DNA from: Candidatus Anderseniibacteriota bacterium
GTDB lineage: Bacteria > Patescibacteriota > Andersenbacteria > UBA10190
Reading direction: 5' to 3'
DNA: 64,000 nucleotides
Assembly: GCA_016197005.1 (NCBI GenBank)
Contig: JACPWO010000002.1
Location: 210,178-274,177 of the forward strand
Shown one piece after another: positions 3,004 through 63,719 of this stretch. The notes beneath the pieces are model-generated. The model was not told where the DNA came from. It ran no database searches and saw only the letters and a program-made list of their open reading frames with translations. A program made the translations under genes and the position numbers. Numbering within the stretch: the first letter of the stretch is position 1; every line of letters begins with the position of its first letter.

Positions 3004-4308
3004 ATGGTTACTTGGAATAACCGTTGGCATACTGCTATGAAAATCCAAGTTCTTGTTGCGGTTAGTGCGATATTTTTTCTTGGGTATCTGTGGGGAGTCA
3101 TTCACCAAGAATCGCTTACTACTTGTCGACTGGCAGATGAGTTTAGTGGCGTGATTACGCGTGTGTATTCGCTCGAGTCTGATCGTGCACAATATGTTGT
3201 CGCTGGTGATAGCGGGTGTTCTACTTTAGTGACCACCCTACGATTGCCAGAGTATGCGGCTGGTCAACGTATCTCTGTTGCTGGTGAAGTCCAGCCCATA
3301 TCCGATCTTCCTGAAGAATACGTAGGGTATCGTGACTACCTTGATCGACAAGCAATCGATGGGACGGTTCGTTTGGCTGATATAGAGGTAACGGGTGGCC
3401 AGCTATTTATAGGAGAGCGTATCCGCCAATCTTTTCGTAAACAAGTGGAAACTGTATTTGGACAGCCCGAAGCAGGAGTTATGAAGGCAATGCTTTTAGG
3501 GGATCGGGGAACGGTTAGCGAAGAGGCGCAGACAGCTTTTGAACGAACTGGAACAACGCATATTCTTTCAATCTCTGGCTTGCATGTTTCTATTCTTGTC
3601 ATTGTGCTCGCTTTTGTACTTGAATCTCTTCCACTTGGCCCGTGGGTACGGTCGAGCATAACGATTGCGCTTCTATGGATGTACATTCTTTTAATTGGTG
3701 CGCCGCCAGCCGCAGTACGAGCAGCGCTCTTTTGTACATGTATTCTATTAGCCCTTCGACTTCGAGTGTTGGTAAGCTTGTCTACCATATTTTTGCTGGC
3801 CGCTACTGCGATGATTTCGAGTAATCCCCATGTACTACAAGACATTGGCTTCCAATTGTCTTTCAGTGCGATTGCCGGCATGGGTCTAGTTCTGTTTTTA
3901 GTAGGACGTCCACAGTCACCACTTCTTAATGCATTTCTCATATCTCTGGGTGCGACCATTGGCACGTGGCCGATTGTGTCGTACCACTTTGGGCAAATCT
4001 CTCTCATTAGTCTGCCGGCAAATGTTTTAATAGTTCCCACGGTTGCACCACTTCTCATCCTGGCACTCTTATCTATTCTAATTAGTTTTGTGGTGCCAGC
4101 GCTCGGACTCGTCGGTGGTTTCTTTGTACACTTACTATGGAAATATATTTTTTCGGTGGCGTTGTTTATGAGCAACATACCTGGAGCAAGTTTTGCGTTT
4201 GCAACACCTTTCTGGCTAGCAGTGGGGTGGTATGGCGTTGTCGTACTAGGTGCAATATATACTTTGTCTCTTCAAAAACGTTCATGGCGCGAGATCTGGG
4301 TCAATTAA
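3004..4308 (+). CDS. comEC: ComEC/Rec2 N-terminal part (DUF4131 + competence domain); frame breaks at an A5 run
   Basis: MKAMLLGDRG...GTTHILSISGLHVSIL competence-domain motif; multiple TM helices; ends 4308 while the MBL domain continues in another frame. Confidence 0.8.
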   Translation: MVTWNNRWHTAMKIQVLVAVSAIFFLGYLWGVIHQESLTTCRLADEFSGVITRVYSLESDRAQYVVAGDSGCSTLVTTLRLPEYAAGQRISVAGEVQPISDLPEEYVGYRDYLDRQAIDGTVRLADIEVTGGQLFIGERIRQSFRKQVETVFGQPEAGVMKAMLLGDRGTVSEEAQTAFERTGTTHILSISGLHVSILVIVLAFVLESLPLGPWVRSSITIALLWMYILLIGAPPAAVRAALFCTCILLALRLRVLVSLSTIFLLAATAMISSNPHVLQDIGFQLSFSAIAGMGLVLFLVGRPQSPLLNAFLISLGATIGTWPIVSYHFGQISLISLPANVLIVPTVAPLLILALLSILISFVVPALGLVGGFFVHLLWKYIFSVALFMSNIPGASFAFATPFWLAVGWYGVVVLGAIYTLSLQKRSWREIWVN

Positions 4309-5132
4309 CAAGTACCGGCATTCTGGCGATTTCGTTCGCCGTGGCTGCTCTGGCCGGCGAGCCAACAAGCAAAGTTGTATTTCTTGATGTCGGCCAAGGC
4401 GATTCTATTTTATTACAAGATGGAATGCAGCAAATCCTTATCGATGGCGGCAAAGGAGACATTGTCCTTGAGCGTTTGGCTGAAGAAGTGCCTTACTTTG
4501 ATAGAAGTATCGAGGTGATTATCTCAACACACCCGGATCAAGATCATTTGGAAGGCTTGCTCCATATTTTACAACGATATGACGTGAAGTTAGTTCTTCT
4601 GCCACAAGCCGCTAAAGAAGATGCGTTGCAAGAAGCGTGGTTAAATCTTCTGCACGAAAAAAATATTCCGTATCGCTTTGCATGGTCAGGACAAACTCTT
4701 AGTGTAGGGAATATGAAGCTTAGTATCTTAGGACCCTTTGATACTGATGCCGCCCGCGCGGCTACTCGCGGTAACATTAATAACGCTTCGGTCTCAACTC
4801 GTCTAGATTACAACGGACTATCCTTTCTCTTAACTGGTGATGCAGAGCTTCAAGCAGAGCAACTTCTTGTGCACACTCTTCCACTTCAACTTAATGTAGA
4901 CATTTTAAAAGCCGGCCACCATGGTAGTAATTCTTCGACTCATACACCGCTTATCCGAGCTGCTTCGCCGGCAGCAGCAGTTATTTCGGTAGGGGCAGAT
5001 AATACGTATGGGCACCCGCATCCCGCCGTATTGCAACGACTTGAAGGGCTACGGCTATGGCGAACCGATGAAGATGGATCTGTACGTTTTCTGTTCAAGA
5101 ATGGACAATGGCTTTCAGCTGTTGCAAAATAA
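4284..5132 (+). CDS. comEC: ComEC C-terminal metallo-beta-lactamase domain (separate frame; probably the same gene as 3004..4308)
   Basis: ORF 4137..5132; VVFLDVGQGDS, HPDQDHLEGL, GHHGSNSS motifs of ComEC MBL domain. Confidence 0.8.
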   Translation: MARDLGQLTSTGILAISFAVAALAGEPTSKVVFLDVGQGDSILLQDGMQQILIDGGKGDIVLERLAEEVPYFDRSIEVIISTHPDQDHLEGLLHILQRYDVKLVLLPQAAKEDALQEAWLNLLHEKNIPYRFAWSGQTLSVGNMKLSILGPFDTDAARAATRGNINNASVSTRLDYNGLSFLLTGDAELQAEQLLVHTLPLQLNVDILKAGHHGSNSSTHTPLIRAASPAAAVISVGADNTYGHPHPAVLQRLEGLRLWRTDEDGSVRFLFKNGQWLSAVAK

Positions 5133-6249: not shown

Positions 6250-6254
6250 GCTAG

Positions 6255-6325
6255 TCGGGCTGTCGGGAATCGGACCCGAACTACAAGACCCCCAGCCTTG
6301 CGTACTACCACTATACTACAGCCCG
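6255..6325 (-). tRNA. tRNA-Pro (anticodon GGG), atypical T-loop (C55)
   Basis: Hand-folded cloverleaf: 7-bp acceptor CGGGCUG/CAGCCCG, D-arm with GG, anticodon loop CUGGGGG, T-arm UCGGG/CCCGA; no encoded CCA. Confidence 0.5.
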
Positions 6326-6368
6326 TTGCTGGAAATCCTACGAGGTAAAGAGTATATTCGCAACACGA

Positions 6369-6440
6369 CGGGGCGTAGCGCAGTGGTAGCGCGCATCGTT
6401 CGGGACGATGAGGCCGCAGGTTCGACTCCTGTCGCCCCGA
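6369..6440 (+). tRNA. tRNA-Pro (anticodon CGG)
   Basis: Hand-folded: acceptor CGGGGCG/CGCCCCG, D-stem GCGC/GCGC with AGUGGUA loop, anticodon stem CAUCG/CGAUG with loop UUCGGGA, T-arm GCAGG-UUCGACU-CCUGU. Confidence 0.85.
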
Positions 6441-6696
6441 CAGATAGTAGTTTCTTCTGCACTGTCATTTGGAGACTAACATGATATAGACGAGAGAAAC
6501 ACGGGCAGAAACACTTTTTGGTTTGTTTGGACTATTGATTGTTTTGGTTGCCGGCCCCGGTACTTTGGTAGGGCCCATATCGCTGGGGCATATTGATCTC
6601 ATGCCATTGTAATGATCGTCGGTTGTATCTGTATGTTTGTTCTACCGGATTATCTACGGAGACGCCGGCAAAACCAAGAAAACAGAGAATGACTGA

Positions 6697-37881: not shown

Positions 37882-37883
37882 AG

Positions 37884-38306
37884 TGCGAAGATAAGCTATA
37901 AGCCGGATTCTGTCAGGGATGATCATCTATCTAGGCGTACTGTCGCCAGTAAGCTCATGCTCTCTACCTGCTTTGTTCGTTTGAACAAAGCTGCTTGAGA
38001 TTGCATCAGGTGGGGTTTGCCCGCTCCACTTGTTACCAAGCAGGGCCGTGGTCTCTTACACCACAATTTCACCTTTACCTTAGATCGCGCCGCGACCACA
38101 CGGGGATTACCCGTAAAAATCACATGAAGATCGTAAGGAAGTTTGTTTCTGTTGCACTCTTCGCTCCGTATATACGGAGTCCCTCAGCTTACGCTGGGCA
38201 GGAGTTAGCTGCCACCTTTTTCTGTTGTAAAACAACGTTGGATGTCCGGACTTTCCTCTATGTCTCATCTTGCGACGAGCCACAGCAATCATCCACTTAT
38301 CTTCGC
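37884..38306 (-). ncRNA. rnpB: RNase P RNA, bacterial type A (M1 RNA)
   Basis: Minus-strand reads GAGGAAAGUCCGGAC (P4), GGUGAAAUUGUGGUGUAAGAGACCACGG, ACAGAAUCCGGCUUAU; 12-bp P1 helix pairs the two ends; no credible ORF. Confidence 0.85.
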
Positions 38307-38311
38307 ATCGC

Positions 38312-38340
38312 AAATATACGCACATTGAAAGCATTTGTCA
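38312..38340 (-). promoter_or_regulatory. rnpB promoter (TTGACA-17-TATATT on minus strand)
   Basis: Consensus hexamers; -10 lies 6 nt upstream of the inferred mature 5' end. Confidence 0.6.
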
Positions 38341-38352
38341 ACCGCCGTATAC
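38324..38352 (+). promoter_or_regulatory. promoter for polysaccharide cluster (TTGAAA-17-TATACT), back-to-back with rnpB promoter
   Basis: Sequence match about 80 nt upstream of 38431 start. Confidence 0.5.
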
Positions 38353-38430
38353 TCAGCGAAGATGCCAAATTGTATTGACATTTCTGCGTTTACCCGCTAT
38401 TCCTTACCCGTTACCCATTACCTTTAAACT

Positions 38431-44036: not shown

Positions 44037-44702
44037 GTGCTTGACGTGATTCCTTCAGGAGCGTCTTCGTATAACCCTCGACCACGACGATCTCGTCGTA
44101 GGCGTTCTGTTCCTAGTCCGAATGTTGTTCAGGTGGAATGGAAATTACCAGCTCGTCTCCGAAAACCAGTCCGTCAACAATTTGCCCAGGAACGTGCCCA
44201 GCGTCGTAGGCGTCAAACAGTCGTTCAATTTCAGCGTCGACCTTTGCATACCCAAGCATTACTGGCTGCGGACAGAGATAGTGCCCGAACAGGTAACCGT
44301 GTTCGTAAGCCTACTCGCCGGTTCTTTGGCGATGCACTTTCTGCTCAGACCAGCGACGTAACCGAAGCAAGTCGCCCACAATTACAGCTCGCTCCACCCC
44401 CATACGTCGGATCATTTGTTGCTAGCCGTCCCACTCAAAGTAAAGCGTCTTCTGTTTCTGCACCACGATTGAAGAAACAGAAAACGTTATCGTATACCAC
44501 TGGTGAACGAGATATTCCAATAACAATTGGTGATGGAGCTCCGGTGCAAGCTACAAATAATGAAGATCTCTTTGTTCAAGTAAAACCTAAGCGCGTAGCG
44601 GCTGGTGTGACGTTTAGTTTGTGGCCAGGAAATTGGTTTCAAAAGCAACCAGCTGCCAAGCAGCCGCAAACAAGTAAAAAAAAACTGATTTCGCAATATT
44701 AG
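44037..44702 (+). CDS. Arg-rich low-complexity protein; probably the N-terminal part of the DUF4012 gene (frame break at A9 run 44676..44684)
   Basis: Disordered R/Q/P-rich sequence; downstream frame open from 44678 and encodes a TM helix straight after the A-run. Confidence 0.55.
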   Translation: MLDVIPSGASSYNPRPRRSRRRRSVPSPNVVQVEWKLPARLRKPVRQQFAQERAQRRRRQTVVQFQRRPLHTQALLAADRDSARTGNRVRKPTRRFFGDALSAQTSDVTEASRPQLQLAPPPYVGSFVASRPTQSKASSVSAPRLKKQKTLSYTTGERDIPITIGDGAPVQATNNEDLFVQVKPKRVAAGVTFSLWPGNWFQKQPAAKQPQTSKKKLISQY

Positions 44703-44812
44703 TCGCGGGGTGTCTTCTTGCTACTGGGCTGGTCTGGCAAGCACAACGTATCGGTATCGCAGTCTCTCGCTTTGATGGTATTCAAGCAGCAGCGGAGGGA
44801 GCAGTAGATAAG

Positions 44813-46666
44813 TTGTTGCAAGGGCAGCAAGTATTAGCGCAAGGAGATTTTGCGGCGGGACAAGAATCATTCGGTGAAGCAAACGTTTTGGTGCAAGAAG
44901 CACAAGGTCAATTACATGATGCGTTATCTTCTTCCCAAACAGTCCTGCAATTCTTGGACGTAAGTGGCACAGTAAAATCTGGTGATAGTATGTTGGCTGC
45001 AACTGCTGCTTTAGCACAAGCTGGTGAGCATACGGCTTCAGGACTAGAAATTCTTTCTCAAGAAAAATCTCTTTCAGAAGCAGTTACAACCGCTCTTCCC
45101 GATATTCGTAGTGCTGCTGAACAGCTAGGCAAAGTGGAAGAAGCATTAAGCCATGTCAATGACGGGATTATTCCGGCTACCGTCCAACCGCAATTTATGA
45201 TGCTTAAGACACTTGTGCCACAAGCTCGCGTTCTGCTAGATCGCTTTCTTAGCCAGGCCGATACTCTTCTCTATCTGTTAGGTACTGAACACGATCGTCA
45301 GTATTTGGTACTGCTGGCTAATAACCATGAACTGCGGCCCGTAGGCGGATTCATCGGTACAACTGCTCTGGTAAATGTGGACAGAGGAGAAGTTGAACAA
45401 GTAGACGTAGCGAGTGTGTATGACGGTGATGGACAACTAAAACAATTTATTGCTCCTCCTGATCCTTTGTCTCCCATAGTTGATCGTTGGTACCTGCGGG
45501 ACTCTAACTGGTTTGTAGATTTCAAAACGTCTGCCCAAAAAGCAGCTGAACTTTTTGAAAAAGAAGGTGGCCCAACAGTGGACGGAGTTATTTTGATGAC
45601 GCCCGAAGTAATTCGAGAAATTCTCGAATTTACGGGCCCCATTGCTGTTCCTGGATATGATCAGCCCATATCTGCCGACACCTTTGTGGAGGTAACCCAG
45701 CGCGAGGTGACCTATGAATATGACCGACAAATTAATCGCCCGAAGCAATTCTTAGCAGATCTTACGCCTATCCTCTTGGAAAAACTTTTCACTGGATCAG
45801 ATAATAAGCTTCAGGTACTGGGAGCGTTGACGCGTTCACTTTCTAAGAAAGATTTATTATTGTCCTTCCGGGATGAAGCCGCCCAAGAGCAAGTAGAGCA
45901 ACTAGGATGGGCAGGAAGTCTGCCCGTTGACGCTCCCGGCTTTTTACACGTGAATAACGCGAATATTGGGGGACATAAAAGTGATGAATTTATTGAGCAA
46001 GAAATAGATTATCGAGTACAAGTTGATGAGAACGGTCAAGCTCAGGCAACGGTAACCATTCGACGTACCCATAACGGACCTACAGAAAAAGGAAACCGCG
46101 AGTTCCCGATAGGTGACGACCCAACGCAAAAAGATAATATTATTTTCCAGCGAGTACTGGTACCAAGCGGCTCGCAGTTACTAGAAGCTAAAGGATTTTC
46201 TCCGAGGCCAACAGATAGTGCTTGGGGATTCAGTCCACCCCAGCCACCAGATGGCGTTACGCTTGAAGCTGATGCTGATCTCGCTGTCTGGCAATCGGGT
46301 CAACAACATGATGCCAGTGGCACCATCATTGGTAAAGAAGCTGGATACACGATGTTTGGGAACTGGATTGTGACCGAGCCGGGCCAGACCTCAGTCGTTC
46401 TGTATCGTTATCAACTGCCCACGCTGATTGAAATGCCTGGCTTATTTAAACCAGCGGCATCAACTTCATTCTTTGTGGCTAAACAATCGGGGGCTAATCG
46501 AACAAGTATCCGGACTGAATTTGCGCTGCCAGTGGGTTACAGAGTTCTACACACAATCCCCGACACTGGAATTACCCGAGAAAGTGATGAAATAACGGTG
46601 TATCGAGGAGATCTATCAACTGATAAGCTTTTCGGAATTGTATTTGAGAAAGCCTCGCGGCTCTAA
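44813..46666 (+). CDS. DUF4012 domain protein (polysaccharide-cluster associated); true N-terminus likely upstream
   Basis: LANNHELRPVGGFIGTTALVNVDRGEV matches DUF4012 core; frame open upstream to 44678. Confidence 0.7.
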   Translation: MLQGQQVLAQGDFAAGQESFGEANVLVQEAQGQLHDALSSSQTVLQFLDVSGTVKSGDSMLAATAALAQAGEHTASGLEILSQEKSLSEAVTTALPDIRSAAEQLGKVEEALSHVNDGIIPATVQPQFMMLKTLVPQARVLLDRFLSQADTLLYLLGTEHDRQYLVLLANNHELRPVGGFIGTTALVNVDRGEVEQVDVASVYDGDGQLKQFIAPPDPLSPIVDRWYLRDSNWFVDFKTSAQKAAELFEKEGGPTVDGVILMTPEVIREILEFTGPIAVPGYDQPISADTFVEVTQREVTYEYDRQINRPKQFLADLTPILLEKLFTGSDNKLQVLGALTRSLSKKDLLLSFRDEAAQEQVEQLGWAGSLPVDAPGFLHVNNANIGGHKSDEFIEQEIDYRVQVDENGQAQATVTIRRTHNGPTEKGNREFPIGDDPTQKDNIIFQRVLVPSGSQLLEAKGFSPRPTDSAWGFSPPQPPDGVTLEADADLAVWQSGQQHDASGTIIGKEAGYTMFGNWIVTEPGQTSVVLYRYQLPTLIEMPGLFKPAASTSFFVAKQSGANRTSIRTEFALPVGYRVLHTIPDTGITRESDEITVYRGDLSTDKLFGIVFEKASRL

Positions 46667-53671: not shown

Positions 53672-53715
53672 CAAACCACAAAGACACGATTGTATAGTTG
53701 TAAAAAAAATATAAA

Positions 53716-53750
53716 ACAAGCTCGATCAAGTTGATCGAGCTTTGATGTTT
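53716..53750 (+). terminator. terminator after transketolase genes
   Basis: AAGCUCGAUCAA/UUGAUCGAGCUU inverted repeat followed by TTTGATGTTT. Confidence 0.6.
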
Positions 53751-53752
53751 AC

Positions 53753-54067
53753 TCAAGCGGGCTCAAGGCAATAGCCGGAGAAGTTCTGAATACTTCCGTC
53801 TGGCATCTCCAAGCCTACAACCTGAGTATGTCCCACATCTTGGGTAGAGGACAGGCGAGAGTCACAGTGAGGCCAATGACCCCCGTCTTGTCTCTTGCAG
53901 GAACAATCCGGGGTGAGAGCAGTCGGTGCAGCATCAACGGCTACAACCCTAAATGGACCCTCACCATGCTCTTTTTCGAGGAGCAGAGAAGTCAAATTTC
54001 GGACGAACACTTTCTGTCCGTGCCGAAAGAGATGAAGTTTTATCTCAGCACGACCGGAATTCGGCAT
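53753..54067 (-). CDS. doubtful small ORF (104 aa) in a slightly GC-elevated spacer; possible histidine-phosphatase remnant (LFRHGQ)
   Basis: Only weak RHG-like motif; equally long ORF on + strand (53828..54082). Confidence 0.2.
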   Translation of the reverse strand: MPNSGRAEIKLHLFRHGQKVFVRNLTSLLLEKEHGEGPFRVVAVDAAPTALTPDCSCKRQDGGHWPHCDSRLSSTQDVGHTQVVGLEMPDGSIQNFSGYCLEPA

Positions 54068-61517: not shown

Positions 61518-62123
61518 ATGTCGCAAGAAATCATTTTGAAAGTCGCGCCGCTGGGTGATGCAGTTATGTGTGCTACTATTGCAAGCAGACTCATTTCCTA
61601 CGGGCTTTCTGTTCGTATGGCCGTCAGCAAGCTCGGAGCAACCCTGTTGGGGAATACTGGTATTCCTTTGACTACGGAAGCTGTCACTGCGCCGCTTGTG
61701 ATCGATGTGTGTGACTATTTGAAACAAGATTGTCATCACGCAAAATTCAAAGGGAGTATTGTCAACGACAACTACCTTCGGGGTGGGTTTGCTCATCTTG
61801 TGACGTGGATGACTCGTCACATTGAAATGGAGTTGGGGCGCATGGAAGTTACATTGCCGACTAGTCTTGATGTTGGTCCTTGCAATGTGAAATTGCCGGT
61901 TACAGAGCTTCAACAGAAAAAGGTACACCAACTTCTTTTAACAGAAGGTATTATGTCGGGGAAGCGGCCGCTTGTGATTATGGCAGCGGAGGCAGGGAGT
62001 CCGAACCGTCGGATTAGTCCGGAAACGTTGCAAGAAGTTGCAATAGGTCTTGAAGAACAAATGGATATTGCGCTTCTGACACCCTTGCCGACTCTTAGCA
62101 TGCAACTCGTAATTAAGGGTTAA
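61518..62123 (+). CDS. GT9 family heptosyltransferase, N-terminal half only (C-terminal nucleotide-sugar domain missing; apparently interrupted by integrated element)
   Basis: ORF 61440..62123 trimmed to MSQEIILKVAPLGDAVMCAT (GT9 N-terminal ALGD motif) preceded by GGAG; only about 200 aa vs about 330 expected. Confidence 0.6.
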   Translation: MSQEIILKVAPLGDAVMCATIASRLISYGLSVRMAVSKLGATLLGNTGIPLTTEAVTAPLVIDVCDYLKQDCHHAKFKGSIVNDNYLRGGFAHLVTWMTRHIEMELGRMEVTLPTSLDVGPCNVKLPVTELQQKKVHQLLLTEGIMSGKRPLVIMAAEAGSPNRRISPETLQEVAIGLEEQMDIALLTPLPTLSMQLVIKG

Positions 62124-63719
62124 GTTCGGTGATGGTAGCTCAATATGGGCCTGAATATCAAACTCCTGGCGCCATACCACTATTCTATCAACTACACCCC
62201 GAATCGTCCGCTTTTTGCTCTGCGGCAGCATGGTCTTAAAGACGCGAGTTGCCTCAATGCACATCGCCCATAGCTCATCTTCGGGGCTGAGAGAGTTAGT
62301 CTGGCTTTGCTGCTGGAGCTCTTCCACTTGTTTGTGGTATCCCGCCTCTCGGTTTTTACTTTCACGAACCAGCTTCTGGTAAATGCCGAGCTCCATATCG
62401 CCTGTGCCGAGCCCCAGGGCGTATTGCTCCCGAATTTTTACTTCTTTGTCGATGAGCTCTTGTAGTCGCGCATTATCTTGTTGAGTGCTTGTATTTTCAG
62501 CGACGGCTTGCAGATGAAATTTGCCGTGCTTATGGAGCAGGTCAGGATCAGTCATGTGAGTCACGAGACCGGTCCACACCGCTTTATCCAAAGCCTTTGT
62601 GTTGACACCTGGATAGGTGCACTCAGTCGGCAGGGGATGCTTTAAGATTTTTTGCGTGCAGCTGTAATATGAGTGTCCGACTTGTCGGCCGTTGCCGGTG
62701 CGCTTGTAGCCGCAACCGCACATCACCAGGCTGGTTAGAAGATAGGCATTCTTCCGATTTTTCTTGGCGTACCTTTGATTGCGCGTCAGCATTTCCAGTG
62801 CCTTCTCGTATGCCCCATCGTCTTCGATGATGGTTGGCACCGCATACGGAATCCACTCTTCTTTGGGACGTACTTTCCGGCTACTCTTTTTTACCTTCTT
62901 ATACTTTTCATGGTTAGTCGGATTTTTCGCTACAATCGCTTCGTTCTTGTTGAAGTAGATAAAACCTTTAGAGTAGGTGTCATATTTGAGAGTGCGGATG
63001 ATTGATTCTTTGACCCAGTGATCCTGCTTTTTCTTAGGCGGCATAATGCCGAGCTTGTAGAGCTTCTCAATAATTTTTCGCAGGCTTACCTGCTCATGCA
63101 CGAACCATTTATAGATCAGGCGGACTACTCGCGCCTCGGGTTCGCTGATCTCGTACCGAGGAGGCTGACCGGGTTCGCGGACAATGCGGTAGCCATAGAT
63201 GGCGTGGCCGTTAATGAGCTTGCCCGCTTTCGCTTTGAACATTTTGCCGCGCCGGAACCGCTCGGCGATTTTTAAGCGTTCATATTCATGGAAAATACCT
63301 TGTACCGATTGCATCAGTTTGGCTTCAGGTGTTATGGCATCAATGTCGTGGAGGGTCACGAACTTGAGACCGAGCTCGCTGAGTTCGTTGATGACTAACT
63401 CTTGATGGTAAAAGATACGAGAGAGACGTCCTCGGTCGTAGACATACAGAATCTGGAACTTGCTTGCAGTAGCGGCATCACGCATGGCATCAAGGCCGGG
63501 GCGCTGCAAAATTGAGCCGGTCCAGCCGTCATCCTTGAACAGAAACTCCGGCGGGAGAATGTGGCCATCATTTTTGATGCGGGATACGACCTCATCGATC
63601 TGCGACTCGATGGTAGCTTCATTCTCCTGTCCCTCAGTCGAGACACGCACGTACGCTGCGGCGATGAGCGATTGCACGGCAGGGGAAGGAGTAATAGTAT
63701 TGGTTTTAGGTGATTGCAT
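61938..63719 (-). CDS. large serine recombinase (resolvase/invertase N-domain + recombinase + zinc-ribbon domains)
   Basis: AAYVRVSTEGQ catalytic Ser motif, 593 aa, coiled-coil/zinc region; 3' end overlaps GT9 ORF. Confidence 0.85.
   Translation of the reverse strand: MQSPKTNTITPSPAVQSLIAAAYVRVSTEGQENEATIESQIDEVVSRIKNDGHILPPEFLFKDDGWTGSILQRPGLDAMRDAATASKFQILYVYDRGRLSRIFYHQELVINELSELGLKFVTLHDIDAITPEAKLMQSVQGIFHEYERLKIAERFRRGKMFKAKAGKLINGHAIYGYRIVREPGQPPRYEISEPEARVVRLIYKWFVHEQVSLRKIIEKLYKLGIMPPKKKQDHWVKESIIRTLKYDTYSKGFIYFNKNEAIVAKNPTNHEKYKKVKKSSRKVRPKEEWIPYAVPTIIEDDGAYEKALEMLTRNQRYAKKNRKNAYLLTSLVMCGCGYKRTGNGRQVGHSYYSCTQKILKHPLPTECTYPGVNTKALDKAVWTGLVTHMTDPDLLHKHGKFHLQAVAENTSTQQDNARLQELIDKEVKIREQYALGLGTGDMELGIYQKLVRESKNREAGYHKQVEELQQQSQTNSLSPEDELWAMCIEATRVFKTMLPQSKKRTIRGVVDRIVVWRQEFDIQAHIELPSPNLTLNYELHAKSRQGCQKRNIHLFFKTYCNFLQRFRTNPTVRTPCLRCHNHKRPLPRHNTFC

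What the first reader, a model, noticed from the sequence alone, without database searches (positions are those of the whole stretch)
44037..46666. A9 homopolymer (A_AAA_AAA slippery heptamer) separates an Arg-rich ORF from the DUF4012 ORF; the -1 frame restores a TM helix
The 221-aa Arg/Gln-rich ORF ends 24 nt after an A9 run (44676..44684). The -1 frame is open from 44678 and runs into the DUF4012 ORF. It first encodes a predicted TM segment (FAILVAGCLLATGLVW) that DUF4012 proteins normally carry at their N-terminus, but no ATG/GTG start exists there.

A one-A insertion, or a -1 ribosomal slip on A_AAA_AAA, would give a single protein of about 876 aa. This is a programmed frameshift, a phase-variable homopolymer, or a homopolymer length error. 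Note that the ComEC break (see next) also needs +1 A, which hints at systematic under-calling of A-runs.
Basis: partly seen in the sequence, partly recalled or inferred. Interest (0 to 1): 0.55.

Follow-up and report, generated by a model that had tools for sequence, protein, structure and literature searches.

The report
Conserved slippery A9 frameshift site
A run of nine A's splits a cell-envelope gene of an uncultivated groundwater bacterium into two reading frames, and the same split recurs in dozens of distant relatives, so it is a built-in recoding signal and not a sequencing error.

Summary
An A9 run (44676-44684) separates a 221-aa Arg-rich ORF from a TM-helix plus DUF4012 ORF that lies in the -1 frame and has no start codon before the helix. 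In-frame homologues of 820-990 aa show that the two halves are one ancestral gene.

It is not a base-calling error. An independent assembly gives the same sequence. Thirteen other Candidatus Andersenbacteria lineages from different samples carry exactly T-A9 at the same spot and need the same +1 nucleotide. Their synonymous sites are saturated and both halves are under purifying selection.

A profile census found 39 separate clusters of stand-alone N-terminal proteins that end in KKK or KKN plus a short tail, against about 11 fused forms.

Three in-frame relatives keep the tract (two A9, one A10). One relative has A10 and needs -1 nucleotide. Runs of nine or more A or T are otherwise almost absent from 311 kb of Andersenbacteria DNA. 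No RNA structure near the site is conserved.

Best reading: programmed recoding, most likely RNA-polymerase slippage on T-A9. It would give a short soluble N-terminal protein plus a minority full-length membrane protein, as in Thermus dnaX, Shigella mxiE and Citrobacter tssM. -1 ribosomal frameshifting and DNA-level phase variation remain rivals. This is a new member of a known kind, apparently undescribed.

The parts
44037..44702 (+). ORF1 (frame 0, GTG start, 221 aa). It encodes the Arg-rich, predicted disordered cytoplasmic N-terminal region of the ancestral DUF4012 protein. Standard decoding ends at TAG 44700-44702.
   Evidence: The N-terminal motifs M.DV.P, WKLPARLR.P, PPYVG, ERD.P and SLWPGNWF align with fused homologues. 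AF2 gives pLDDT 56 and pTM 0.19 with one helix at residues 39-59. dN is well below dS against relatives.
44675..44684 (+). T-A9 tract, the proposed slippage/recoding site. One extra A in the mRNA, or a -1 ribosome slip, joins ORF1 to the downstream frame.
   Evidence: Exactly T-A9 is found at the homologous position in 13 other split lineages and 2 in-frame ones, and T-A10 in 2 more. T at -1 is present in 18 of 18.
44678..46666 (+). ORF in the -1 frame (662 codons plus stop) encoding the TM anchor and the DUF4012 ectodomain. It has no canonical start codon before TTG 44813.
   Evidence: The 45 codons between the tract and the first start show dN 0.15 against dS 1.08 versus L003.
44690..44737 (+). 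Codons for the TM helix FAILVAGCLLATGLVW, readable only in the -1 frame.
   Evidence: Across the 7-member clade, the 25-codon stretch spanning most of this helix and the 10 codons after it (about 44693-44767) has 7, 12 and 1 invariant positions of 25 at codon positions 1, 2 and 3. It has 0 stops in this frame against 10 in the ORF1 frame. AF2 predicts a helix at residues 2-24.
44686..44688 (+). TGA in the third frame. Transcripts with A8 or A11 would end as ..KK(K)N*.
   Evidence: A stop within 1-11 codons in this frame is seen in all split loci.
45293..45709 (+). Pfam DUF4012 (PF13196) core match.
   Evidence: residues 206-344 of the -1 frame ORF, 100.2 bits, E = 1.9e-28.

Best explanation
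ORF1 and the DUF4012 ORF are one gene whose expression depends on a conserved slippery tract, T-A9, placed exactly between the cytoplasmic N-terminal region and the membrane anchor.

Proposed mechanism (inferred):
- RNA polymerase slips on the nine A's (dT9 in the template) and makes a mixed mRNA population.
- A9 transcripts give a 221-aa soluble, basic, disordered protein.
- A8 and A11 transcripts give almost the same protein, ending ..KKN or ..KKKN.
- A10 transcripts (also A7 or A13) join the frames and give the 876-aa N-in, single-pass membrane protein with an extracytoplasmic DUF4012 domain.

Every cell would therefore make mostly the short form and some of the long form, from an envelope-polysaccharide operon (GT4 glycosyltransferases, DUF4012, MurJ-like flippase).

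Shown: the tract, its frames, its conservation, and purifying selection on both halves. Inferred: that the shift occurs at the RNA-polymerase level, and that both products are functional.
For: 1. One ancestral gene. In-frame homologues of 820-990 aa cover 96-100% of the fused sequence, including the ORF1 motifs.

2. Not an artefact. The NCBI contig and a Logan assembly are identical. The exact 221-aa ORF1 product is recorded on 4 contigs, and no fused variant of this species is in the protein database.

3. Conservation.
- Fourteen lineages have exactly T-A9 with the downstream ORF in the -1 frame.
- ORF1 is intact in all 12 complete loci.
- Synonymous sites are saturated, with dN well below dS on both sides.
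- Chance retention of three AAA Lys codons in 16 lineages is about 7e-10 at the window's AAA usage of 0.645.

4. Census. Thirty-nine separate 50%-identity clusters of stand-alone ORF1-like proteins end in KKK or KKN plus 1-18 aa, against about 11 fused forms. The residue before KKK always has an NNT codon, or is Val, which L018 encodes as GTA.

5. Features that fit polymerase slippage.
- All nine A's are conserved, although a ribosomal heptamer needs only seven.
- T is at -1 in 18 of 18 loci, whatever the amino acid and in two different codon phases.
- The tract is kept in in-frame relatives (L009, L010 and L027), the Thermus dnaX arrangement.
- L173 has A10 and needs -1 nt.
- Runs of nine or more A or T are otherwise avoided, which is Baranov's criterion for slippage-prone length (PMC1088944).
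- Stops lie close by in both unproductive frames.

6. No conserved structure upstream or downstream, and no internal promoter or terminator.
Against: - There are no RNA or protein data, so transcript heterogeneity is inferred.
- A_AAA_AAA is also a valid -1 ribosomal shift site, and it gives the identical protein.
- A9 is also mutable at the DNA level, and CPR mismatch-repair status is unknown here.
- One A10 in-frame lineage (L027) and one A10 out-of-frame lineage (L173) look like ON and OFF states of a phase-variable tract.
- The proposed role of the conserved T (a weak rU:dA pair at the hybrid edge) is my inference.
- A separate function for the short product is unproven.
Confidence: 0.55

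Rival explanations
1. Programmed -1 ribosomal frameshifting. Tandem tRNA-Lys slip back one base on A_AAA_AAA (run positions 3-9). Translation continues as KKK-TDFAILV.., and non-shifted ribosomes stop at TAG 44700.
For: - The heptamer is in the correct phase in the window, and in the different phase of L018 (GTA AAA AAA AAG).
- Fourteen of 15 split lineages need a -1 shift.
- A_AAA_AAA and A_AAA_AAG are known bacterial shift sites (PMC3711429, PMC5009743).
Against: - No conserved downstream hairpin or pseudoknot: z-scores run from +1.8 to -3.5 and the structures sit in different places. No conserved upstream Shine-Dalgarno sequence either.
- It does not explain why the first two A's and the preceding T are invariant.
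- It does not explain why in-frame relatives keep A9 or A10.
- It does not explain L173, which needs the opposite shift.
Confidence: 0.15
2. DNA-level phase variation. The A9/A10 tract is a contingency locus that switches by replication slippage. A9 is the OFF state of a surface or envelope protein, and a minority of cells are ON.
For: - The gene lies in an envelope polysaccharide cluster, a typical class for phase variation (PMC3711429).
- Both A9 and A10 occur at the site, in frame or out of frame, in different lineages.
Against: - Of 15 lineages whose in-frame length is A10, 14 show A9 and one shows A10; none shows A8 or A11. Two lineages whose in-frame length is A9 also hold A9. Tract length is therefore conserved largely regardless of frame.
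- About 39 stand-alone clusters against about 11 fused forms would mean OFF nearly everywhere, for a strongly conserved (dN well below dS), near-universal CPR family (PMC6744442).
- No length variant of this species is in the database.
- Logan contigs run through the tract without breaking.
- The conserved T at -1 is unexplained.
Confidence: 0.17
3. A true gene split. ORF1 and a TM-less DUF4012 protein (started at TTG 44813/44816, as annotated) are made and act separately, or one half is a decaying pseudogene.
For: The NCBI annotation and gene callers call two genes.
Against: - The 45 codons between the tract and the first start, including the TM helix, are under strong purifying selection in the -1 frame.
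- The starts chosen by gene callers differ between relatives and fall inside or after the helix.
- Without the anchor, an ectodomain would stay in the cytoplasm.
- ORF1 is intact in all complete loci.
Confidence: 0.05
4. Homopolymer length error in sequencing or assembly (true length A10).
For: The break sits on the longest homopolymer in the window.
Against: - The sequence is identical in two assemblers.
- The same A9 is seen in 13 other species-level lineages from at least 8 other runs.
- In-frame relatives also have A9.
- No other gene in the window is broken at a long A run.
Confidence: 0.02

Closest known systems
Citrobacter rodentium / Yersinia pseudotuberculosis tssM (T6SS) transcriptional frameshifting (Gueguen et al. 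2014, PMC4256274)
   Same: An envelope membrane protein gene is interrupted at a poly-A tract at a domain boundary. Slippage adds A's and gives a truncated and a full-length form from one gene, and the site is conserved in a second genus.
   Different: That tract is A11, in Proteobacteria, and the split removes a C-terminal periplasmic domain. Here the tract is A9 with a conserved 5' T, the split precedes the only TM helix, dozens of lineages share it, and there is no experiment.
Shigella flexneri mxiE / spa13 (T9/A-run slippage) as summarised in PMC1088944 and PMC5009743
   Same: Two overlapping ORFs are joined by one non-templated nucleotide, and the longer product needs slippage.
   Different: Those are plasmid T3SS regulator and secretion genes in a single genus.
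Thermus thermophilus dnaX (A9 transcriptional slippage; PMC1088944)
   Same: Exactly A9, with stops close by in both other frames, and two products that share an N-terminus. The in-frame relatives L009 and L010 have this same arrangement.
   Different: In dnaX the templated frame gives the long product. In the window the templated frame gives the short product.
E. coli dnaX and IS-element -1 programmed ribosomal frameshifting (A_AAA_AAG/A)
   Same: A lysine-codon slippery heptamer in the right phase, and a short zero-frame product.
   Different: Those sites have a Shine-Dalgarno sequence and/or a hairpin as stimulators. None is conserved here, and the run is longer than the ribosomal shift needs.
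Poly-A phase-variable surface genes (e.g. Mycoplasma fermentans p78, cited in PMC3711429) and poly(A)-tract rescue in insect endosymbionts (Tamas et al. 2008, from my own knowledge)
   Same: A homopolymeric A tract inside a surface or essential gene, with frame restored by length change.
   Different: Phase-variable tracts vary in length between strains. Endosymbiont tracts are scattered decay products and are not conserved at one site across lineages.

Membership tests
Programmed transcriptional slippage (realignment) site | Run of about 9 or more A or T in the sense strand at the junction of two overlapping frames | tested here: met
   A9 at 44676-44684, with ORF1 and the -1 ORF overlapping across it.
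Programmed transcriptional slippage (realignment) site | Run and frame arrangement conserved among diverged orthologues, with both parts under purifying selection | tested here: met
   Fourteen DNA-verified lineages and 39 protein clusters. dS is saturated and dN/dS is about 0.1-0.3.
Programmed transcriptional slippage (realignment) site | Long A/T runs otherwise avoided in the organism's genes (Baranov 2005 criterion) | tested here: met
   In 311 kb, outside the site: A9 = 0, T9 = 1, A8 = 9, T8 = 7. This is a sample of loci, not whole genomes.
Programmed transcriptional slippage (realignment) site | mRNA length heterogeneity at the run on a homogeneous DNA template | not testable with these tools
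   No reads or transcriptomes are available.
-1 programmed ribosomal frameshift cassette | X_XXY_YYZ heptamer in the zero-frame phase | tested here: met
   A_AAA_AAA at 44678-44684.
-1 programmed ribosomal frameshift cassette | Conserved stimulator (3' hairpin or pseudoknot at 5-9 nt, or 5' Shine-Dalgarno-like sequence) | tested here: not met
   Folding of 14 loci shows no common structure, and the window's z-score is +0.55 downstream. A Shine-Dalgarno-like AAGGAGG occurs only in L028.
-1 programmed ribosomal frameshift cassette | Same shift direction in all members | tested here: not met
   L173 (T-A10) needs +1 frame, that is -1 nt.
Phase-variable contingency locus (slipped-strand mispairing) | Tract length differs between close strains or within populations | tested here: inconclusive
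   The exact 221-aa ORF1 product, which requires A9, is recorded on 4 contigs, and no variant protein of this species is in the database. Across lineages, 16 of 18 tracts are A9. No read-level data.
DUF4012 (PF13196) membrane-anchored proteins | Pfam match above gathering score, and an N-terminal TM anchor before the domain | tested here: met
   100.2 bits against a cut-off of 28. The TM helix is present only in the -1 frame reading.

The most novel reading that the evidence does not exclude
The T-A9 tract is an ancient, family-wide programmed slippage signal in CPR bacteria. It fixes the ratio between a free, Arg-rich cytoplasmic peptide and the membrane-anchored DUF4012 envelope protein, and both products are needed. 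The invariant U just 5' of the run is a mechanistic determinant of RNA-polymerase realignment. This would be the first recoding event defined for the Candidate Phyla Radiation.
Probability: 0.4. Interest if true: 0.72.

Novelty: new member of a known kind. Interest (0 to 1): 0.62.

Why it matters
- Annotation pipelines call this locus as a hypothetical protein plus an N-terminally truncated, anchor-less DUF4012 protein, in many Patescibacteria genomes. Recognising the recoding corrects the gene model for a family that is a hallmark of CPR and Gram-positive envelopes.
- It gives recoding research a new case with natural replicates: dozens of lineages, both frame arrangements and two codon phases. 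That makes it useful for asking what makes an A9 run slip, including the role of the conserved 5' T.
- It shows that uncultivated, reduced-genome bacteria use decoding tricks to make two proteins from one envelope gene.
- It can be tested directly with existing groundwater metagenome and metatranscriptome pairs.

Tried and rejected
- **Sequencing error.** Rejected by the independent assembly and by cross-lineage conservation.
- **Systematic A under-calling via ComEC.**
  - The A8 at 53702 is intergenic, next to a hairpin.
  - ComEC (3004-4308, Competence domain; then a Lactamase_B ORF) has only an A5 in the overlap, and an ATG at 4289.
  - I first looked for ComEC in the wrong places.
- **Internal start or reinitiation for DUF4012.** There is no canonical start before the TM helix, gene-caller starts are not conserved, and there is no promoter or terminator between the ORFs.
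- **Conserved stimulatory RNA structure.** None found. Only L018 has an 8-bp hairpin abutting the run.
- **L014 frame change.** It is a scaffold N-gap.
- **Metagenome-contig scan.** It added only duplicates of known types.
- **ORF1 word-based protein search.** It found only 5 hits. The HMM census was needed.
- **Function from structure.** The AF2 model of TM plus DUF4012 (pLDDT 71) has no meaningful PDB fold match (TM-score 0.2 or less) and no PDB sequence match. ORF1 is predicted disordered.
- **A9 before the TM helix in other Patescibacteria classes** (L039, L043, L131). These are in frame and come from AT-rich genomes with many such runs, so I treat them as the likely origin (juxtamembrane poly-Lys) and not as evidence.
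Full report
**What is there**

The window matches Candidatus Andersenbacteria MAG GCA_016178385.1, contig JACOTL010000006.1. An uninterrupted A9 lies at 44676-44684 and is the longest homopolymer in the 64 kb.

- ORF1 (44037-44702; GTG start; 221 aa; 28 Arg) reads the run as three Lys codons. It stops five codons later at TAG 44700-44702.
- The -1 frame has TAA at 44675-44677, formed by the T before the run plus its first two A's. It is open from 44678 to 46666.
- That frame starts KKTD-FAILVAGCLLATGLVW, a TM helix at 44690-44737, and carries a Pfam DUF4012 match (100 bits).
- The first ATG/GTG/TTG in that frame is TTG 44813, after the helix. This is why NCBI annotated an anchor-less 616-aa protein (P0001).
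- One extra A gives an 876-aa protein.

**One gene, not two**

A search with the fused sequence found 92 relatives. Most are 815-990 aa and cover 96-100% of the query.

The alignment shows ORF1's motifs at the N-terminus of those single proteins: M.DV.P, WKLPARLR.P, HTGD.Y, PPY.G, ERD..Y and LP.S..P. The TM helix and the DUF4012 region follow.

The neighbourhood is an envelope-polysaccharide cluster. It holds GT4 glycosyltransferases upstream, then a MurJ-like flippase, LepA and rhamnose-pathway enzymes downstream.

**Not an artefact**

A Logan assembly of SRR12113387 is base-for-base identical over 5.1 kb, including the A9. The exact 221-aa ORF1 product, which requires A9, is recorded on 4 contigs. 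No fused variant of this species is in the 5.8-billion-cluster database.

The six closest relatives (55-70% aa identity; five other SRA runs) were all called as proteins that start inside or after the TM helix. Their DNA shows why:
- Each has exactly T-A9 at the same place.
- An ORF1 homologue in frame 0 ends 2-5 codons after the run.
- The TM helix follows in the -1 frame directly after a TAA.

More cases came from GTDB representatives and further look-ups.

| Tract state | Loci |
|---|---|
| T-A9, needs +1 nt | L018, L024, L028, L169, L170, L171/L172, L174 |
| T-A9, in frame | L009, L010 (and L089) |
| T-A10, in frame | L027 |
| T-A10, needs -1 nt | L173 |
| No tract, in frame | 16 GTDB representatives |

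With the window and its six closest relatives, that makes 14 lineages with T-A9 needing one extra nucleotide. A frame change in L014 is only a scaffold gap.

**Strength of conservation**

- Between even the closest pairs, synonymous sites are saturated (pS 0.57-0.80).
- The 45 codons between the tract and the window's first possible start have dN/dS of about 0.14 (window against L003) and 0.09 (L007 against L008).
- ORF1 has dN 0.36-0.56 against dS of 1.8 or more.
- Over the 25 codons that follow the tract and cover most of the TM helix, invariant positions are 7, 12 and 1 of 25 for codon positions 1, 2 and 3. There are no stops in the -1 frame and ten in the ORF1 frame.
- ORF1 is intact from its start through all motifs in all 12 complete split loci.
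- AAA makes up 64.5% of Lys codons in the window. Keeping AAA AAA AAA in 16 lineages by chance is therefore about 7e-10 (assuming independence).
- The base before the run is T in 18 of 18 loci. The codon it belongs to encodes Ser, Ala, Gly, Ile, Arg, Pro or, in a different phase, Val (GTA in L018).
- In 311 kb of Andersenbacteria DNA (48% GC), all 16 A9 and both A10 runs are at this site. Elsewhere there are nine A8, seven T8, one T9 and no A9.

**How common it is**

I searched a profile built only from stand-alone ORF1 proteins against 1.84 billion representatives and got 53 hits.

- Thirty-nine are separate 50%-identity clusters of 178-336-aa proteins. They end in KKK (37) or KKN (2) followed by 1-18 residues.
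- Ten are full-length fused proteins and one is a partial fused protein.
- The residue before KKK is S, V, G, R, D, A, T, P, I or L. All of these have NNT codons or, for Val, GTA. It is never K, E, Q, M or W, although the region is rich in K, E and Q.
- This fits a T before the run everywhere.

Clustering favours the more divergent short proteins, so the ratio is not a frequency. Even so, the split form is clearly a normal state of this family.

A neighbour-joining tree of the C-terminal region puts the window and its six closest relatives in one split clade. The other split loci are interleaved with in-frame tract-bearing lineages. The tract-less genes form their own clade. The tract therefore looks old, and its frame relation has changed several times.

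**Mechanism**

Three processes slip on A runs: RNA polymerase, ribosomes and DNA polymerase (PMC3711429). I rank them as follows.

*RNA-polymerase slippage (about 0.55).* It explains the most observations.
- The whole A9 is conserved, and nine is the length at which selection against A/T runs appears in many bacteria. It is also the length used by Thermus dnaX (PMC1088944).
- Such runs are avoided elsewhere in these genomes.
- The invariant T makes a 10-bp stretch of A/T only. My inference is that a weak rU:dA pair at the upstream edge of the hybrid eases realignment.
- The tract is kept in in-frame relatives. There it would yield the short form by slippage, as in Thermus dnaX.
- One lineage needs a deletion instead of an insertion.
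- Stops lie within 1-18 codons in both unproductive frames, so all non-productive transcripts give nearly the same short protein.
- No RNA structure is conserved. L018 alone has a perfect 8-bp hairpin abutting the run. That recalls hairpin-stimulated slippage (Penno et al. 2015, cited in PMC5009743).

*-1 ribosomal frameshifting on A_AAA_AAA (about 0.15).* It would give the same protein and may contribute. It lacks conserved stimulators and does not explain the extra conserved bases, the in-frame tracts or L173.

*Phase variation (about 0.17).* It is plausible for an envelope gene, and both A9 and A10 occur. However:
- Tract length is conserved regardless of frame.
- Among 15 lineages whose in-frame length is A10, 14 show A9 and none shows A8 or A11.
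- The split state dominates a strongly constrained family that is characteristic of CPR and Gram-positive bacteria (PMC6744442).
- Read-level data are still needed.

Separate-gene or pseudogene readings (0.05) and sequencing error (0.02) are unlikely, for the reasons given above.

**What the products are**

- AlphaFold2 on the -1 frame ORF gives pLDDT 71 and pTM 0.70. The model has a TM helix, a helical region of about 170 residues, and then mixed alpha/beta and beta-rich domains.
- No solved structure matches it by fold (TM-score 0.2 or less) or by sequence.
- ORF1 is predicted disordered apart from one basic helix at residues 39-59. It looks like a cytoplasmic tail carrying short conserved motifs.
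- DUF4012 has only been discussed as a CPR- and Gram-positive-enriched family found in an EPS cluster of Bifidobacterium longum (PMC6744442).
- Whether the free short form regulates, competes with or chaperones partners of the full-length protein is speculation. The precedent is tssM, where both forms and their ratio matter (PMC4256274).

**Comparison and novelty**

The site works like known programmed transcriptional slippage sites:
- Shigella mxiE/spa13 and Citrobacter/Yersinia tssM for the out-of-frame arrangement;
- Thermus dnaX for the in-frame relatives.

It meets the sequence-level and evolutionary criteria of that class. The defining biochemical criterion, heterogeneous mRNA from homogeneous DNA, cannot be tested here.

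Full-text searches found no paper that links CPR/Patescibacteria with transcriptional slippage at a gene or with programmed frameshifting. Only three papers mention DUF4012 at all.

I class it as a new member of a known kind. It has unusual comparative depth, and it has a practical consequence: these loci are mis-annotated as two genes.

Noticed in passing
window 3004-5132: ComEC is in two overlapping ORFs. The Competence domain is at 3004-4308, and the Lactamase_B domain is in the -1 frame (open from 4137, ATG at 4289). The overlap holds only an A5 (4274-4278) and a T6. This looks like two adjacent or overlapping genes, or an old split, and not a homopolymer miscall.
   Followed up: partly
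window 53702-53750: An A8 run lies in intergenic DNA and is followed by a 13-bp inverted repeat (AAGCTCGATCAAC / GTTGATCGAGCTT). It is probably a bidirectional terminator between the transketolase gene and a 104-aa minus-strand ORF (53753-54067) of unknown function.
   Followed up: partly
L018:2102-2122 (GTDB contig CAZUSC010000088.1): A perfect 8-bp hairpin (ACCCGTTC-TACA-GAACGGGT) directly abuts the A9 tract in this one lineage. The geometry is that described for hairpin-stimulated transcriptional slippage.
   Followed up: partly
L039:3318, L043:3524, L131:1722: DUF4012 genes of other Patescibacteria classes (Doudnabacteria and others) also have an in-frame A9 encoding KKK/KKKK just before the TM helix. 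This suggests the Andersenbacteria tract arose from a juxtamembrane poly-Lys. Those genomes are AT-rich and have many A8/A9 runs.
   Followed up: partly
window 37883-38304 (-): Bacterial RNase P class A RNA (202 bits). The 127-aa '+' ORF listed at 37995-38378 overlaps it and is probably spurious.
   Followed up: no
window 61941-63719 (-): A large serine recombinase (Resolvase, Recombinase and Zn-ribbon domains) near the window end. It may mark an integrated mobile element.
   Followed up: no
window 6254-6441: Two divergently oriented tRNA-Pro genes (GGG and CGG anticodons) lie 43 nt apart.
   Followed up: no
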